Shown in pieces: positions 9,071 to 29,400 of a stretch of 64,000 bases of DNA. Every line of letters starts with the position of its first letter. Within the stretch, counting starts at the first letter, position 1. The stretch lies in the NCBI RefSeq assembly GCF_030013595.1, contig NZ_CP122768.1. One strand, given 5' to 3'. The notes below the pieces were generated by a model. It saw only the letters and a program-made list of their open reading frames with translations, had not been told where the DNA came from and searched no databases. The stretch is from Escherichia coli. Lineage in GTDB: Bacteria; Pseudomonadota; Gammaproteobacteria; Enterobacterales; Enterobacteriaceae. Both the position numbers and the translations under genes were made by a program.

Positions 9071-10057
9071 TCACTTATTAAAATGCCCCCAACGAAAATA
9101 CATGTCACATGCCATCATAAAATCGTTATGCCAGAGGAATCGACAATGGAAAAAATAGTAAATTAAGCATGGTACATAGCAGAGTAAAAAATAGGCTTCA
9201 AACCAAATCCGCCATTCCACAAGCGTTGCCAATACCGACACCAGCGTAATCCACATCACTTCAATAACCAGCAATATGAATAACCGAAGCCAAAGCGGCT
9301 TGGCAAAAAAGGTCGACAACGCATTTTCACTGGAGAAAAACAGATCGATTTCCTGCAAAAAAAGCCTGCCCAGAAAAGCGTACCGCTTGGAGAAGCGCAG
9401 AAAAAACAGATTAATCGCCAACACTACGCCACAAAGAATGAGCAATGCAATTATCGATTTAAACGTTAACCACTGCCCCTCTGTCACAAAAGAATCACTG
9501 TTACGCAACGGGCTGATAGTAAGCAGGTTAACAACCGTTGAGATGCACACCGAAAGCAGCACATAGCGAGTCAGACTTTTATATTTTACCTTTTTCGCCA
9601 CTGAAATAGCGACCTGCTTGACATAACTGGTGCGGATCATCCGAAACAGCAGAAAGATAACCAACGGCCCAAGTAACGAAATCAGGAACAGCGCATATAA
9701 CGAGGGTAGAAGCTGGTATAGCCCCCAACTCATTGCACTCAACATGATTAGCGACAGAAATCCTGCCACCAGAGGTTGCGTAAGAAATAATTCTATTTTG
9801 TGGTTATGCTTTTTCTTAAACCACGAAAAATCGATATTCTTCGTGACGCATTTATAAGCCCAGTACGCCTTGAGATCAAAAATAAAATTATACAGCACCA
9901 GGGCCAGAATCCCACTAACGACACCAATATCCTCAGATGGAAAAGTAAACCCTGCATTTTTCCAATAAAAGCCTATCAGAATAAGTCCAATAGCATAAAT
10001 GTATATCAGATTTCGTTTATCCTGAAAGCGAATAAAAGTTAAATAATCAGGAATCAT
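9071..10057 (-). CDS. ycdU: Polytopic inner membrane protein YcdU (328 aa); terminal gene of the island operon
   Basis: Protein [60 protein letters not shown]...; start overlaps stop of upstream gene by 4 bp (ATGA). Confidence 0.8.
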
Positions 10058-10998
10058 TTGAATACCTTCGCATCACTAAATGCTTTACGACAATGCATAA
10101 CTCGTTGCTGATCCACGCCAGCAAAATCATTTAACATATTCCCCAAATAAGGCTTATTACTTATTTCAAGGAAAGCTACCGGGGTTGGCATATTCAGAAA
10201 TGTATCGAGAGATTCAGTCCATTTCACCGTGTGAGTTAAGTGTAATGAGAGATTTTCTTTGATAATTGACGGAGCGACCTCGCTTTTTGCTGTTACGTTC
10301 ATCAGAACCTGATGCTCTGGTGAAGCGATATCCAGTCCGGCAAGATAATCGCGCATTGCCTGAACGCCGTCTTCCATCAAACGCGTGTGCCAGGCACCGC
10401 TCACACCGAGTTTAACCGGTTCGTATCCAGCGGCCATCAGCAGCGTGGCAAATTCATTCAACGCAGCCTGCGTTCCCCCAATAACCTGCTGGCGCGGCGT
10501 GTTATCACAGCTAATATCCAGCGCAATGCCTGATTCCGTAATCATCGTCTGCAGTTGTTCGCGGTTGATGCCTTTAACCGCCAGCATTGCGCCTTTATTT
10601 CTCTGGCTTTCGTCATGCATCAGGCTGGCTCTGAAGTGAATCATGCCAAATAGCGTCTCAAGAGAAAGAGCTCCGGCGGCGTAGAGCGCACTGTATTCAC
10701 CAACGCTGTGTCCGCAGGAGCCCACAACCGTTAAATTCTCAAGACGCTCACGGCACAGGGTATAGAGCGTTACATTAATTGCGGTCACCGCCAGTTGTTG
10801 TACCGTCGTTTGAATAAGGCGATTCATCGGCCCTTTCTGACACAGGCGACGCAGGTTCAGTCCGGAAATATCGCTGGCACAATCCCAGATATGTTTTGTA
10901 CTGGCGTTGAGATCCCAAAGATCGCTGCCCATACCAATAACCGGATTACCCTGACCGGCAAAAAGCAGTACTGTCGGTTGTGAAGCATTATTCATCAT
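10054..10998 (-). CDS. Malonyl-CoA:ACP transacylase-like acyltransferase (FabD family, 314 aa); full-length counterpart of the locus called ymdE in K-12
   Basis: N-terminal [14 protein letters not shown] and [14 protein letters not shown] (FabD GQGxQ and GHSxG active-site motifs). Confidence 0.7.
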
Positions 10999-28500: not shown

Positions 28501-29400
28501 ATTTGTCGTCAGGTTGATCGTGCTTGCAGACTGAATCTGGGCATTGCTATTTAACAGGTTACCTTTGGAATCGATGCTGACACCATTAACACCCCCAGCA
28601 ATAACGCCGAGGTTGCGAACCCCTACACCTTTCTCGGTGCTAACCAGACTGATTTTGTTCGCATACATTCCGCCCAGTTTGGCAACATCTACGCTGTAAC
28701 CGTTACGGGAACCCGTGGCGGATACGCTACCGGTCACCTGGCCTGCGGCGTTAACATAGTTATTGCCAGCAACAACGTTCAGCTCATCGGCAGACACTTT
28801 GCCGTTAACCACCACGTTACGGGAAAGAATTTCTGTCGGGCTGGCGTTATCCAGTTTACCGAGCGTAATGGTACCGCCGTTCACGGAATAACCGGCCAGC
28901 TTGTCATCCTGGATATCCGGCGTCCCGGTGGTTAAGGTCAGTTTACCTGTATTGATTGAACCACCACCGTTTACAGTAATACCATTCGGGTTGGCAATAA
29001 TCAGATCCGCTTTATCCCCTGCAACTTCCATCATCCCATTAATGGTTGAAGGATTTTTGGAAGTAACCTCATTCAGGATCACCTTCGCCGACCCGGAGGT
29101 CAGATTACTGTTTCCCTGAATATTTCCGGCAAGTGAAGTACTGGATTCATTAGCGCTGTTATTGAAAACGACACCATTTTTATCAACGTTTAGGTTATCC
29201 CAGATATTATGAGATAAACCGCTACCGTTAGGTTTGTTGATGTCTACGACTGGCACACCATTGGCGTTATATACCGTTCCATTTTTTATGACTAATCCCG
29301 CCGCTTGAGAAGCTACAGGAAAAGACAACATCATAAGTATAGCAATAGGGGTTAATGCTTTACCCACCGTTGCTTCCTTACTTAAATTTATCATCGCCAC
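25588..29400 (-). CDS. TpsA exoprotein, filamentous haemagglutinin/haemolysin-like (1270 aa)
   Basis: Extended signal peptide; N-terminal TPS domain with ANPNGITVNGG and NPNGI-type motifs; long Asn/Gly/Thr-rich beta-helical repeats with internal ~1.13-kb duplication. Confidence 0.8.
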   Translation of the reverse strand: MAMINLSKEATVGKALTPIAILMMLSFPVASQAAGLVIKNGTVYNANGVPVVDINKPNGSGLSHNIWDNLNVDKNGVVFNNSANESSTSLAGNIQGNSNLTSGSAKVILNEVTSKNPSTINGMMEVAGDKADLIIANPNGITVNGGGSINTGKLTLTTGTPDIQDDKLAGYSVNGGTITLGKLDNASPTEILSRNVVVNGKVSADELNVVAGNNYVNAAGQVTGSVSATGSRNGYSVDVAKLGGMYANKISLVSTEKGVGVRNLGVIAGGVNGVSIDSKGNLLNSNAQIQSASTINLTTNGTLDNTTGTVTSVGTISLNTNKNTIVNTRAGNISTMGDIYVNSGTIDNTNGKLAAAGMLAVDTNNATLINSGKGSSVGIEAGIVALKTGTLNNSNGQIRGGYVGLESGALNNNNGDIQTTGDIAIISNGNVDNNKGLIRSSTGHIVIGAAGSVNNGSTKTADTGSSDSLGIIADTGVEIGANNINNNGGQIASNGNVSLSSYSTVDDYAGKILSNSKVIIKGSSLRNDTGGISGKQGIEVAVGGSLTNNIGVISSEEGDISLLANSVDNHGGFMMGQNITMESMSGVNNNTALIVASKKLKINAFGNIENRDGNSFGNAYGLYFGMPQQTGGMVGKEGIELSGQNIYNNNSRLIAEDGPLTLQAQNTFDNTRALVTSGADASIQVGGTYYNNYATTWSAGNLDIDATTLQNSSSGTMIDNNATGFIASDKNLSLEVVNSLTNYGWISGKGDVDVTVNNGNLYNRNTIAAEKGLDIAALNGIENWKDISAGGDLTMNTNRHVTNNSNSNMVGQNIVINAVNDINNCGNIVSDADLNVTTKGNLYNYLYMVGYGDVALTANSVANNNATIEATGDLIIDSKGNVGNNRGNLHALNGVLSVKGSNLNNDYGEIRGYDDVTLALTGNYDSFKGSLTSETGDVTLTANIIDNAYGLIAGENVSVDAKSTIYNNTALIAANKKLVINAGGNLENRDGNNFLRNNGALFGITDNVGGIVGKEGVTLSAQNVYNNNSSIIAENGPLNLLSRGTLDNTRALLSSGADAIIRAAGMFYNNYATTYSAGNLDVYAASLNNASDGRLEDNTATGVIASDKNLDLNVDNSVTNYGWISGKGDVHFNVLKGTLYNRNAIAADNALTINALNGVENFKDIVAGTALTIDTQKYVTNNSNSNMLGQTIAINAVNDINNRGNIVGDYSLGVKTTGNIYNYLNMLSYGVAGVSANKVTNSGKDAVLGGFYGLALEANETDNTGTIVGM

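What the first reader, a model, noticed from the sequence alone, without database searches (positions are those of the whole stretch)
9071..29400. A ~20-kb co-directional operon couples a two-partner-secretion pair to a lipid biosynthesis module and a Lol-like export module
On the minus strand, with 4-bp overlaps or gaps of a few dozen bp throughout, the gene order is: TpsA exoprotein (TPS domain, 1270 aa), TpsB transporter, AcpS-type phosphopantetheinyl transferase, FabG-like reductase, FabA/Z-like dehydratase, ACP, a 386-aa unknown, a fused two-domain ketosynthase, a further KS-like protein, a 317-aa unknown, ABC ATPase, exported unknown, FtsX-type permease, LolA-like protein, outer-membrane barrel, FabD-like acyltransferase, YcdU. 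This architecture suggests either a lipid-modified or lipid-activated TpsA toxin/adhesin, or a secreted lipid/polyketide-like product exported by the ABC-LolA-OMP route. I know no characterised system matching this combination; it resembles aryl-polyene-type clusters in its FAS and LolA parts but lacks a recognisable ammonia-lyase or adenylation enzyme and adds TpsAB.
Basis: partly seen in the sequence, partly recalled or inferred. Interest (0 to 1): 0.85.

Follow-up and report, generated by a model that had tools for sequence, protein, structure and literature searches.

The report
OtpAB secretion pair fused to lipid operon
This is the already catalogued but functionally unexplained half of E. 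coli O157-type genomic island OI-47, a 17-gene operon joining a secreted filamentous protein and its outer-membrane transporter to a private lipid-making and lipid-exporting machine, and the same arrangement recurs in about two dozen other bacterial species.

Summary
Window 9071-29400 carries 17 co-directional minus-strand genes with tiny gaps. It is E. coli, 98% identical to O157:H7 island OI-47 (S-loop 71, ECs1282-1296 plus ycdU). The gene content was published in 2006, and the TPS pair is OtpA/OtpB, reported as a genuine two-partner secretion system.

- The "386-aa unknown" is a GcvT-like folate enzyme. The "317-aa unknown" is a thiolase-fold partner of the third KS. The 462-aa protein is an OprD/AlgE-like barrel.
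- YcdU is the conserved last gene. K-12 ymdE-ycdU is the IS3-truncated stump of this operon.
- The lipid and export module occurs without any TPS genes in Pseudomonas, Paraburkholderia and Serratia. It is therefore autonomous.
- TpsA is present in two sister clades, which fits one old acquisition. The tpsB-acpS junction is at most 23 nt in 24 of 25 loci. TpsB co-diverges with the enzymes.
- E. coli genomes hold all of it or none (379 versus 380 genomes). dN/dS is 0.07.
- It is not an aryl-polyene cluster; this was tested against O157's own APE cluster.

The most likely function is a dedicated surface lipid co-expressed with OtpA. The product is unknown and covalent lipidation of OtpA is unsupported.

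The parts
25588..29400 (-). otpA (TpsA exoprotein, 1270 aa): signal peptide, TPS domain with an ANPNGI motif, then a beta-helical repeat region with an internal duplication.
   Evidence: TIGR01901 at 77 bits and the fil_hemag repeat. Pfam TPS. The TPS domain matches FHA 1RWR at 1e-36 and HpmA. Most orthologues are 850-910 aa and a few are about 1290 aa. Named OtpA in the literature.
23880..25499 (-). otpB (TpsB Omp85-type transporter, 539 aa).
   Evidence: Pfam POTRA_2, POTRA_3 and ShlB. Matches CdiB 6WIM at 6e-42 and FhaC at 1e-20.
23496..23876 (-). AcpS-type phosphopantetheinyl transferase. The annotated start is at 23864.
   Evidence: TIGR00516 at 80 bits, above its cut-off of 59.8. Pfam ACPS.
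22721..23518 (-). FabG-like ketoreductase. The annotated start is at 23482. It carries the TGxxxGIG and YxxxK motifs.
   Evidence: NF009466 at 227 bits, above its cut-off of 222. The motifs are visible in the translation.
22169..22717 (-). FabZ/FabA-fold dehydratase (182 aa) with the HFPxxPxxPG histidine motif.
   Evidence: FabZ models at 72-74 bits over residues 17-80, below their cut-offs. Pfam FabA, with a weak ApeI-like hit.
21866..22147 (-). Dedicated acyl carrier protein (93 aa, LDSVD serine motif).
   Evidence: NF006617 at 44 bits and weaker ACP models. Pfam PP-binding, weak.
20670..21830 (-). GcvT-like folate-binding aminomethyltransferase-family protein (386 aa), the signature gene of this cluster family.
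   Evidence: NF001567 at 137 bits, below its cut-off of 300. Pfam GCV_T plus GCV_T_C. Matches T-protein structures 1WOO at 8e-25, and the second acid of the GGIIDD motif is kept as D94. Present in all 48 loci where the region is held.
18038..20596 (-). Fused KS-CLF protein (852 aa). The N-half is a FabF-like active ketosynthase. The C-half is KS-fold without the Cys/His/His residues.
   Evidence: TIGR03150 at 448 bits. Cys162, His294, His330 and Lys325 are invariant in 44 of 44 sequences. The C-half has Gly/Glu, Gly and Phe/Leu at the equivalent positions.
16810..18099 (-). Third KS-fold protein (the annotated start at 18033 gives 407 aa). It has a Cys/Ser/Thr nucleophile and one His, and the second His is replaced by an invariant Tyr.
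   Evidence: Weak KS hits at 53-65 bits. Residue counts are Cys 13, Ser 3, Thr 3, His 19 of 19 and Tyr 19 of 19.
15860..16813 (-). 317-aa thiolase/KASIII-fold protein without a conserved Cys; probable partner subunit of the third KS.
   Evidence: AlphaFold model at pLDDT 92. Foldseek matches to ChlB3, OleA, DpsC, PqsBC and CerJ at E 1e-11, TM about 0.57. Fused to the KS3 homologue in a 784-aa protein. Only 47 representative clusters match it among 1.8 billion proteins.
15142..15936 (-). LolD/MacB-type ABC ATPase. The annotated start at 15849 gives 235 aa.
   Evidence: TIGR02211 at 228 bits, below its cut-off of 308. Pfam ABC_tran.
14502..15158 (-). 218-aa exported accessory protein with no family assignment, always encoded between the ATPase and the permease.
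   Evidence: No NCBIfam or Pfam hit. The signal-peptide-like N-terminus is visible in the translation. Conserved in all three clades.
13191..14501 (-). MacB/LolCE-type FtsX permease with a periplasmic MacB_PCD domain (436 aa).
   Evidence: TIGR02212 at 92 bits, below its cut-off of 362. Pfam MacB_PCD plus FtsX.
12394..13182 (-). Periplasmic LolA-superfamily protein (262 aa).
   Evidence: Pfam TP_0789-like. Matches 3BUU, 'LolA superfamily protein NE2245', at 1.5e-34.
11009..12397 (-). 462-aa outer-membrane beta-barrel.
   Evidence: AlphaFold model at pLDDT 87 with about 18 strands. Foldseek matches to chitoporin, OprD/Occ porins and AlgE at E 1e-12, TM 0.5-0.56.
10054..10998 (-). FabD-like malonyl-CoA:ACP transacylase with a GHSxGE motif. 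Its 3' end is all that K-12 keeps, as the pseudogene ymdE.
   Evidence: TIGR00128 at 179 bits, below its cut-off of 261. Pfam Acyl_transf_1. In K-12 the annotation reads 'ACP S-malonyltransferase, missing N-terminus', next to IS3.
9071..10057 (-). ycdU, a polytopic inner-membrane protein and the conserved last gene of the operon.
   Evidence: It overlaps fabD by 4 bp. A homologue sits at the same position in Rahnella (39% identity, E 2e-86) and in loci L005 and L006. Eight transmembrane helices are reported in PMC4951805.
29401..30790 (-). 1.4-kb AT-rich non-coding region upstream of otpA, presumed to hold the promoter and leader. It contains a perfect 16-nt inverted repeat at 29663-29713.
   Evidence: GC falls to 0.38-0.44 in the 2-kb windows covering it. 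Promoter-like hexamers at 30137-30188 and 30501-30529 on the minus strand are no more frequent than chance. The inverted repeat is I5. No Rfam family matches.
39027..40344 (+). grvA-fidL (ToxR/ToxS-like membrane regulator plus lipocalin-like sensor), a candidate cognate regulator. This assignment is tentative.
   Evidence: Homologues lie beside the cluster in two Kosakonia species, directly upstream of tpsB, and 1.1 kb upstream of tpsA in Buttiauxella. The family is described in PMC9214523.

Best explanation
The segment is one operon, the otpA-to-ycdU half of E. coli island OI-47. It is built from two units.

Unit 1 is OtpA/OtpB, a two-partner secretion pair.

Unit 2 is a self-contained member of an undescribed family of lipid biosynthesis and export clusters. 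The steps below are inferred.
- The AcpS-type transferase activates a private ACP.
- The FabD-like enzyme loads malonate.
- A FabF-like KS fused to a catalytically dead CLF-like domain elongates the chain, and the FabG-like KR and FabZ-like DH process it. This clade has no operon-encoded enoyl reductase, so the chain is either unsaturated or finished by host FabI.
- A GcvT-like folate enzyme performs an unidentified one-carbon step.
- A third KS-fold protein has lost the decarboxylation histidine. With its thiolase-fold partner it transfers or condenses the chain, possibly onto a membrane acceptor with the help of YcdU.
- A MacB/LolCDE-type ABC transporter with its 218-aa accessory protein extracts the product from the inner membrane. 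It hands the product to a LolA-like periplasmic carrier, which delivers it to an 18-strand outer-membrane barrel.

Unit 2 works alone in more distant bacteria. OtpA was recruited once, in the ancestor of the enterobacterial and Proteus-type clades, and has been kept co-transcribed since. OtpA is therefore most likely a surface or secreted partner that acts together with the exported lipid in surface, adhesion or colonisation biology. It is probably not the lipid's obligatory substrate.

Shown here: the gene identities, the conservation pattern, the tight coupling and purifying selection. Inferred: the order of reactions, the product, and the nature of the OtpA-lipid relation.
For: - Identity with OI-47: 98% over the full 20.3 kb against O157:H7.
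- Domains and catalytic residues are intact.
- The 317-aa protein has a thiolase fold and occurs fused to KS3. The 462-aa protein is a barrel. The 262-aa protein belongs to the LolA superfamily.
- An autonomous lipid and export module is found in 20 loci with no TPS domain or TpsB anywhere in the DNA held. Those loci carry an extra SDR that best matches FabL enoyl reductase.
- TpsA-bearing clades A and C are sisters in the KS-CLF tree.
- The gap from the TpsB stop to the acpS start has a median of 16 nt and is at most 23 nt in 24 of 25 loci.
- TpsB pairwise identities track those of five cluster proteins (rho 0.49-0.67; Mantel test against KS-CLF, 0 of 2000 permutations reached the observed value).
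- In E. coli the TPS part is at least 80% present in 379 genomes and the lipid part in 380.
- dN/dS is 0.07 overall and below 0.2 for every gene, including otpA.
- YcdU is conserved at the operon end.
- OtpAB is reported to be a genuine TPS system. The island was enriched in a spinach-root interaction screen and is reported to be induced during the interaction with spinach roots.
Against: - No expression, lipid or protein-chemistry data were available for this operon, so the product is entirely unknown.
- The role of the GcvT-like enzyme has no precedent that I could find.
- Two Kosakonia species keep an intact tpsB but lack tpsA. The Proteus/Providencia clade keeps tpsA but has no tpsB, LolA-like gene or barrel nearby. 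The two units can therefore be partly uncoupled.
- The published suggestion for OtpA is a role accessory to the neighbouring loc6 fimbriae, not to the lipid genes.
- Co-divergence and co-retention would also follow from simple physical linkage.
Confidence: 0.6

Rival explanations
1. OtpA is the substrate. The private FAS makes an acyl chain that is attached covalently to OtpA, or is needed to activate it, as acyl-ACP is used to acylate RTX toxins. The KS3/317-aa pair would be the transferase.
For: - otpB abuts acpS within 23 nt across genera.
- The TpsA linkage is old.
- The closest structural relatives of the 317-aa protein include KASIII-like acyltransferases such as ChlB3 and CerJ.
- KS3 has lost the histidine needed for decarboxylative condensation.
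Against: - All enzymes, including KS3 and its partner, are kept in 20 loci that have no TpsA.
- Two Kosakonia species lack tpsA but keep the rest intact.
- A dedicated ABC, LolA-like and barrel route is not needed for a protein that leaves through TpsB.
- From general knowledge of type Vb secretion, TpsA proteins cross the inner membrane unfolded via Sec, and no acylated TpsA is known.
Confidence: 0.12
2. The two units are functionally independent neighbours. A TPS adhesin-like pair and a lipid cluster travel and are expressed together only because they sit on one mobile island.
For: - The lipid module exists alone.
- The cluster tree disagrees with species taxonomy: Aeromonas and Acinetobacter are nested among Enterobacterales. 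Copies occur on megaplasmids. Both point to horizontal transfer as a block.
- tpsA can be lost.
- The literature links OtpA to the loc6 fimbriae instead.
Against: - The junction has stayed at most 23 nt in 24 of 25 loci, although the proteins have diverged to 44-66% identity.
- tpsA is kept directly in front of acpS even in the sister clade, which has lost tpsB.
- The neighbouring fimbrial operon is shared only with Kosakonia sacchari among the loci examined, so it is not a conserved partner.
Confidence: 0.22
3. It is a variant aryl-polyene (APE) pigment cluster.
For: - antiSMASH flags one APE-type gene in this synteny block (PMC9205054).
- The DH has a weak ApeI-like Pfam hit.
- The set KS/CLF, KR, DH and a LolA-like protein is shared in kind with APE clusters.
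Against: - O157 has a genuine APE cluster elsewhere (ECs4324-4341). tblastn of all 17 proteins against it finds only KR at 33%, ACP at 33% and KS at 31-33%, and nothing for the other proteins.
- There is no adenylating enzyme, second ACP, thioesterase, LPLAT acyltransferase, glycosyltransferase, methyltransferase or MMPL exporter.
Confidence: 0.03
4. The operon is a silent, decaying relic in E. coli.
For: - About 2280 of 5426 complete genomes keep only ycdU plus a fabD stump next to IS3.
- The upstream region is long and AT-rich.
Against: - All 17 ORFs are intact.
- There are 325 synonymous against 81 non-synonymous differences from the O157 allele, giving dN/dS of 0.07.
- The island was positively selected in a plant-root interaction screen and is reported to be induced on contact with spinach roots.
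Confidence: 0.03

Closest known systems
O-island 47 / S-loop 71 of E. coli O157:H7 (Z1542-Z1556, ECs1282-ECs1296, ycdU), including OtpA/OtpB
   Same: It is the same locus. Identity is 98% at the nucleotide level over all 20.3 kb, with the same 17 genes in the same order.
   Different: The window is a non-O157 allele. Only 27 of 2661 matching records are at least 99% identical, and the best match is a pig isolate. Its chromosomal flank lacks the integrase island that sits beside ycdU in O157.
Aryl-polyene (APE) and flexirubin-type clusters, for example E. coli O157 ECs4324-4341 (BGC0000836)
   Same: Both are type II FAS/PKS-like sets (KS plus a CLF-like partner, KR, DH, ACP) combined with a LolA-like protein and an envelope exporter for a cell-bound lipid.
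   Different: - No aryl starter enzyme, thioesterase, LPLAT, glycosyltransferase or methyltransferase, and one ACP instead of two.
- A MacB-type ABC plus barrel instead of an MMPL exporter.
- It adds a GcvT-like enzyme, its own AcpS and FabD, YcdU and the TPS pair.
- Shared proteins are at most 33% identical.
LolCDE-LolA lipoprotein release pathway and MacAB-type tripartite ABC exporters
   Same: It has a LolD-like ATPase, an FtsX/MacB_PCD permease and a LolA-superfamily periplasmic protein. The logic is extraction of a lipidic cargo from the inner membrane and hand-over to a periplasmic carrier.
   Different: All scores fall below the NCBIfam cut-offs for LolC, LolD and LolE. There is a single permease gene. 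There is no LolB, no MacA-like adaptor and no TolC. It uses its own 218-aa accessory protein and a porin-like barrel.
TPS operons with a dedicated modifying enzyme (HMW1ABC and EtpBAC glycosyltransferases) and acyl-ACP-dependent toxin acylation (HlyC/CyaC). This comparison is from my own knowledge.
   Same: An exoprotein and its transporter are encoded with accessory enzymes in one operon.
   Different: Here the accessory part is a 15-gene lipid pathway with its own export route. That pathway also exists without the exoprotein. No HlyC-like or glycosyltransferase gene is present.
Heterodimeric thiolase-fold enzymes with one inactive subunit (type II PKS KS/CLF; PqsBC)
   Same: An active KS is paired with a dead KS-fold partner. 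Here this occurs twice, once as a fusion (KS-CLF) and once as adjacent genes that are fused in one relative.
   Different: The second pair has a Cys/Ser/Thr, His, Tyr site not seen in standard elongating KS. Its partner is only 317 aa with no family assignment.

Membership tests
Two-partner secretion (type Vb) | The exoprotein has an N-terminal TPS domain with the NPNG motif. | tested here: met
   TIGR01901 at 77 bits, above its cut-off of 29. Pfam TPS. 'IIANPNGITVNG' is visible in the translation. Matches the FHA and HpmA TPS domains.
Two-partner secretion (type Vb) | There is an adjacent Omp85-family transporter with POTRA domains. | tested here: met
   Pfam POTRA_2, POTRA_3 and ShlB. Matches CdiB and FhaC. 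It lies 88 nt downstream of tpsA.
Two-partner secretion (type Vb) | Secretion of TpsA depends on TpsB. | not testable with these tools
   Reported for OtpA/OtpB of EDL933, as cited in bioRxiv 10.1101/2020.04.13.038984. I could not read the primary paper.
Type II fatty-acid/polyketide synthase | There is a discrete ACP with its own PPTase and a malonyl transacylase. | tested here: met
   ACP with a DSV serine, AcpS above its cut-off, and FabD-like with the GHSxGE motif.
Type II fatty-acid/polyketide synthase | There is an elongating KS with a Cys-His-His triad. | tested here: met
   Cys162, His294 and His330 are invariant in 44 of 44 family members.
Type II fatty-acid/polyketide synthase | The full reducing cycle is present, including an enoyl reductase. 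| tested here: not met
   No ER gene is present in the window operon or in clades A and C. A FabL-like SDR occurs only in the clade without TPS genes.
Aryl-polyene cluster | An aryl-starter activating enzyme, two ACPs, a thioesterase, LPLAT and glycosyltransferase, and an MMPL exporter are present. | tested here: not met
   None is among the 17 genes. The O157 APE cluster shows all of them.
Aryl-polyene cluster | The proteins are related in sequence to APE proteins. | tested here: not met
   Only KR, ACP and KS match, at 31-33%. Thirteen proteins find no match. FlxB scores 184 bits against a cut-off of 340.
Lol lipoprotein pathway (LolCDE, LolA, LolB) | The proteins are equivalogs of LolC, LolD, LolE and LolA, and LolB is present. 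| tested here: not met
   LolD scores 228 against a cut-off of 308, LolCE 92 against 362, and LolE 69 against 439. The periplasmic protein matches Pfam TP_0789-like and LolA-superfamily structure 3BUU, not LolA itself. No LolB gene is present.
MacB-type ABC exporter | The permease has four transmembrane helices of the FtsX type and a periplasmic MacB_PCD domain, with a separate or fused ATPase. | tested here: met
   Pfam MacB_PCD plus FtsX, and ABC_tran.
MacB-type ABC exporter | There is a MacA-like membrane-fusion adaptor and a TolC-type duct. | tested here: not met
   No such gene is present. A 218-aa unassigned protein, a LolA-like protein and a porin-like barrel are present instead.
Glycine-cleavage T-protein (GcvT) | The protein reaches the equivalog score, and partner H, P and L proteins are present. 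| tested here: not met
   NF001567 scores 137 against a cut-off of 300, and TIGR00528 scores 102 against 236. No gcvH or gcvP lies nearby.
GcvT/folate-binding aminomethyltransferase superfamily | GCV_T and GCV_T_C domains are present and the conserved acidic residue of the GGIIDD motif is kept. | tested here: met
   Both Pfam domains are present. D94 aligns with the second Asp of the T. maritima and E. coli T-proteins, and it is Asp or Glu in the family.

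The most novel reading that the evidence does not exclude
OtpA is a two-partner-secreted protein whose activity depends on a dedicated lipid that the same operon makes and exports. 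The lipid could serve as an anchor, a cofactor or a covalent modification. This would be the first TPS system with its own lipid pathway. The lipid, built with a GcvT-like folate enzyme, would be a new class of enterobacterial surface molecule involved in plant or gut colonisation.
Probability: 0.25. Interest if true: 0.8.

Novelty: new variant of a known kind. Interest (0 to 1): 0.55.

Why it matters
- It is a 17-gene operon under strong purifying selection in E. coli O157:H7, O55:H7 and other lineages, and in many Enterobacter, Klebsiella oxytoca, Kosakonia, Rahnella, Proteus, Pseudomonas and Paraburkholderia genomes. Its product and role are unknown.
- It explains two K-12 orphan genes, ymdE and ycdU, which were proposed as markers of mastitis E. 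coli. They are the stump of this operon.
- It defines a cluster family distinct from aryl polyenes, with an unprecedented GcvT-like enzyme.
- It gives a concrete, testable hypothesis for the function of OtpA, which has lacked one since its description.
- Published screens link the island to plant-root interaction, and deletion of the whole of OI-47 is reported to raise type III secretion. The product may therefore matter for the environmental persistence of a food-borne pathogen.

Tried and rejected
- PADLOC defence models on eight proteins gave no hits.
- An Rfam scan of 7800-31500, including the 1.4-kb leader, found no riboswitch and only the tRNA and RtT-like repeats.
- The promoter and terminator scans found nothing placed in a junction, and the counts were at or below the shuffled expectation.
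- A sequence search of the 317-aa protein against the PDB gave no hit. hhalign against the KS families gave only a weak signal (P 0.003). The fold was settled by structure prediction instead.
- I looked for a TpsB in the Proteus/Providencia clade with a cluster-specific HMM and with Pfam on two upstream Providencia genes. None was found; one of those genes is a Big_1/RCC1-repeat protein and the other has no hit.
- I tested whether the island's own SDR gene (37560-38350) is the missing enoyl reductase. It resembles the operon KR, not the FabL-like gene of clade B.
- Literature searches for a characterised product found nothing. The primary OtpAB paper is not held.
- Plasmid carriage was checked. 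Several hits are multi-megabase records (4.1-4.9 Mb), which I read as chromosomes filed as plasmids, and the Rahnella (549 kb) and Enterobacter bugandensis (322 kb) hits are large plasmid records.

Full report
**What is there**

With the longest-ORF starts the gaps run from -77 to +88 nt. With called gene starts on a near-identical E. coli contig they run from -17 to +88 nt. Neither consensus scan finds a terminator or promoter placed in a junction.

The window is E. coli. The order is ghrA, tRNA-Ser, RtT-like repeats, the operon, a fimbrial operon, grvA-fidL, an EAL and a GGDEF gene, pgaABC, phoH, efeOB and putPA.

The 20.3 kb is 98% identical over its whole length to O157:H7 genomes. It is therefore the otpA-to-ycdU part of O-island 47, also called S-loop 71 (PMC8565820; bioRxiv 10.1101/2020.04.13.038984).

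**What was already known**

- The gene content, described as a hemagglutinin/hemolysin-like protein and its activator followed by an 'operon-like structure' of FAS genes including an aminomethyltransferase, was published in 2006 (PMC1635569).
- The TPS pair is named OtpA/OtpB and is reported to be a genuine TPS system that groups with neither the haemolysin nor the adhesin subtype. From my own memory the primary paper is Choi, Dawson and Bernstein, J Bacteriol 2007. I could not read it.
- A 16-gene synteny block, 's1-ST11', was noted in 2022, with one gene flagged as APE-type by antiSMASH (PMC9205054).
- The island was enriched in a spinach-root BAC screen and is reported to be induced during the interaction with spinach roots.
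- Deleting the whole of OI-47 is reported to raise type III secretion (PMC10877973).
- I found no study of the lipid genes' product.

**Identities of the parts**

NCBIfam and Pfam confirm TPS, POTRA/ShlB, ACPS, SDR/KR, FabA/FabZ, PP-binding, two KS domains in the 852-aa protein, a further KS, ABC_tran, MacB_PCD plus FtsX, a LolA-superfamily protein and Acyl_transf_1.

- **The '386-aa unknown'** is a GcvT-like folate-binding protein. It has the GCV_T and GCV_T_C domains, matches T-protein structures at 8e-25, and keeps the key acidic residue. It scores well below the GcvT cut-off.
- **The 852-aa protein.** The N-half has an invariant Cys-His-His-Lys set, and the C-half has none of these residues. 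It is a fused KS-CLF.
- **The next KS-fold protein** has a Cys/Ser/Thr nucleophile and one His, and an invariant Tyr replaces the second His. This argues against ordinary decarboxylative elongation.
- **The '317-aa unknown'** belongs to a very small family, 47 representative clusters among 1.8 billion proteins. It models confidently (pLDDT 92) as a thiolase/KASIII fold, closest to ChlB3, OleA, DpsC, PqsBC and CerJ. It lacks a conserved cysteine. In one metagenomic relative it is fused to the KS3 homologue. I read the two as a heterodimer.
- **The 462-aa protein** models as an OprD/chitoporin/AlgE-like barrel.
- **The 218-aa exported protein and YcdU** remain unassigned.

**Comparative genomics**

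Homologues of the GcvT-like protein at 60-76% identity are common in Enterobacter, Klebsiella oxytoca and K. aerogenes, Kosakonia, Leclercia, Serratia, Mixta, Aeromonas and Acinetobacter. Context look-ups and a scan of 100,044 species genomes gave 49 related loci. A tblastn synteny table, a TpsB HMM and a TPS-domain search sort them into three architectures.

- **Clade A** has 25 loci, covering E. coli-like clusters in about 20 genera including Aeromonas and Acinetobacter. It shows the full 17-gene order. TpsB sits directly before acpS in all 25, and TpsA is present in 23.
- **Clade C** comprises Proteus mirabilis, P. myxofaciens, Providencia and two metagenomic contigs. An 845-aa TpsA sits directly before acpS. 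No tpsB, LolA-like gene or barrel is found in up to 33 kb.
- **Clade B** has 20 loci: Pseudomonas alcaligenes and P. guryensis, seven Paraburkholderia, several Serratia, Cedecea, Winslowiella and Entomohabitans. The complete biosynthesis and export set is present, together with an extra SDR that best matches FabL enoyl reductase. There are no TPS genes at all.

In a KS-CLF tree, clades A and C are sisters and clade B lies outside. One old acquisition of tpsA is therefore the simplest history.

**Evidence for coupling within clade A**

- The tpsB-acpS gap has a median of 16 nt and is at most 23 nt in 24 of 25 loci. The exception is a frameshifted tpsB.
- TpsB pairwise identities co-vary with those of five other cluster proteins (rho 0.49-0.67). 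In a Mantel test against KS-CLF, 0 of 2000 permutations reached the observed value.
- In 5426 complete E. coli genomes the TPS part is present in 379 and the lipid part in 380.
- The window and O157 alleles differ by 325 synonymous and 81 non-synonymous changes, giving dN/dS of 0.07. Every gene is below 0.2.

**YcdU and the K-12 stump**

A YcdU homologue follows fabD with a 4-bp overlap in Rahnella (39% identity, E 2e-86). One is also present in clade B and clade C contigs. YcdU is therefore the conserved terminal gene of the operon.

About 2280 E. coli genomes, including K-12, keep only ycdU plus 340-525 bp of the fabD 3' end, abutting IS3. This is the ymdE-ycdU pair that was proposed as a mastitis-associated core locus (PMC4951805).

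**Comparison with known systems**

O157's genuine aryl-polyene cluster (ECs4324-4341) was fetched and compared directly. Only KR (33%), ACP (33%) and KS (31-33%) match. The defining APE genes are absent from the OI-47 operon.

The export genes resemble LolCDE and MacB in domain content but fail the curated cut-offs. LolB, MacA and TolC equivalents are missing. The operon may therefore work like a Lol- or APE-type lipid-to-outer-membrane route without being a member of either family.

**Interpretation**

The TpsA linkage is old, tight and selected. This makes a functional partnership more likely than chance neighbourhood. Physical linkage alone could give the same patterns, however, and the partial uncoupling seen in Kosakonia and in Proteus argues against an obligatory enzyme-substrate relation. 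Covalent lipidation of OtpA is a minority possibility.

The product is unknown. The absence of an enoyl reductase in the TpsA-bearing clades and its presence in clade B hint at different degrees of saturation.

A further lead concerns regulation. grvA-fidL is a ToxR/ToxS-like pair with a lipocalin-type sensor (PMC9214523). Homologues lie beside the cluster in two Kosakonia species and in Buttiauxella. They may be the operon's own regulator.

**Verdict**

This is a real, conserved and selected operon, and the locus itself is already catalogued. Its TPS pair has been characterised as a secretion system, but its lipid half is an undescribed cluster family of unknown product. It is interesting as a well-defined orphan system in a major pathogen.

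Noticed in passing
window 8145-8937: A 179-bp tandem repeat with 4.4 copies at 99% identity starts in the 3' end of tRNA-Ser(GGA). Four units match Rfam RtT at 42-43 bits, just under the gathering score of 45. K-12 has three annotated RtT copies here and another strain has one, so copy number varies.
   Followed up: partly
window 46535-49891: pgaB appears to be split. A 370-aa N-terminal piece and a 311-aa ORF flank an IS4-family transposase gene at 47751-48959. The 311-aa ORF was not itself scanned.
   Followed up: no
window 37560-38350: The island's SDR oxidoreductase gene is broken into 111-aa and 174-aa ORFs here, but is one intact 783-bp gene in O157 Xuzhou21 (L001 40491-41273).
   Followed up: no
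window 39027-40344; L012 4311-5649; L013 4325-5648; L014 1026-2343: grvA-fidL homologues (23-27% identity) lie beside the cluster in two Kosakonia species, where they are divergent and directly upstream of tpsB, and in Buttiauxella, 1.1 kb upstream of tpsA. This raises the possibility that GrvA/FidL is the operon's cognate regulator.
   Followed up: partly
L012 and L013 (Kosakonia pseudosacchari, K. quasisacchari): Both keep an intact tpsB directly before acpS but have no tpsA. An oppA-like gene and the grvA-like pair lie upstream instead.
   Followed up: partly
L055 6474-7025 and L024 2471-3019 (Rahnella): A FimB/FimE-like tyrosine DNA invertase gene sits just upstream of tpsA. In L055, a 13-nt inverted repeat (7196-7208 and 7456-7468) lies between the invertase gene and tpsA. 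This may be a phase-variable promoter. The invertase was seen only in Rahnella.
   Followed up: partly
L015 191-2917 and 3521-6193; L017 199-2802 and 3676-6237: Two tandem tpsA paralogues precede tpsB in an Enterobacteriaceae MAG and in Tenebrionibacter. In E. coli, Enterobacter and Aeromonas, tpsA is about 400 aa longer through an internal duplication.
   Followed up: no
L009 6244-7951 (Enterobacter mori LMG 25706): tpsB is split into two overlapping ORFs. This is either a frameshift or a sequencing error.
   Followed up: no
window 29663-29713: A perfect 16-nt inverted repeat with a 19-nt loop lies about 260-310 nt upstream of the otpA start. On the coding strand it is followed by a T-run 12 nt later.
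   Followed up: no
L036, L037, L040, L044 (Pseudomonas): The same gene set is rearranged. The LolA-like, barrel and fabD genes precede acpS, and the ABC genes come last. This shows that the family is built from movable sub-modules.
   Followed up: no
L006 11152-11916 and equivalents in clade B: An extra 254-aa gene with no family hit lies between the thiolase-fold gene and the ABC ATPase. It was seen only in the clade without TPS genes.
   Followed up: no
L001 1-11634 (O157 Xuzhou21): In O157 an integrase-bearing island abuts ycdU at the serX side. It carries a TOTE conflict-system primase-domain gene, a YfjI-family gene and IS elements. The window lacks it.
   Followed up: no
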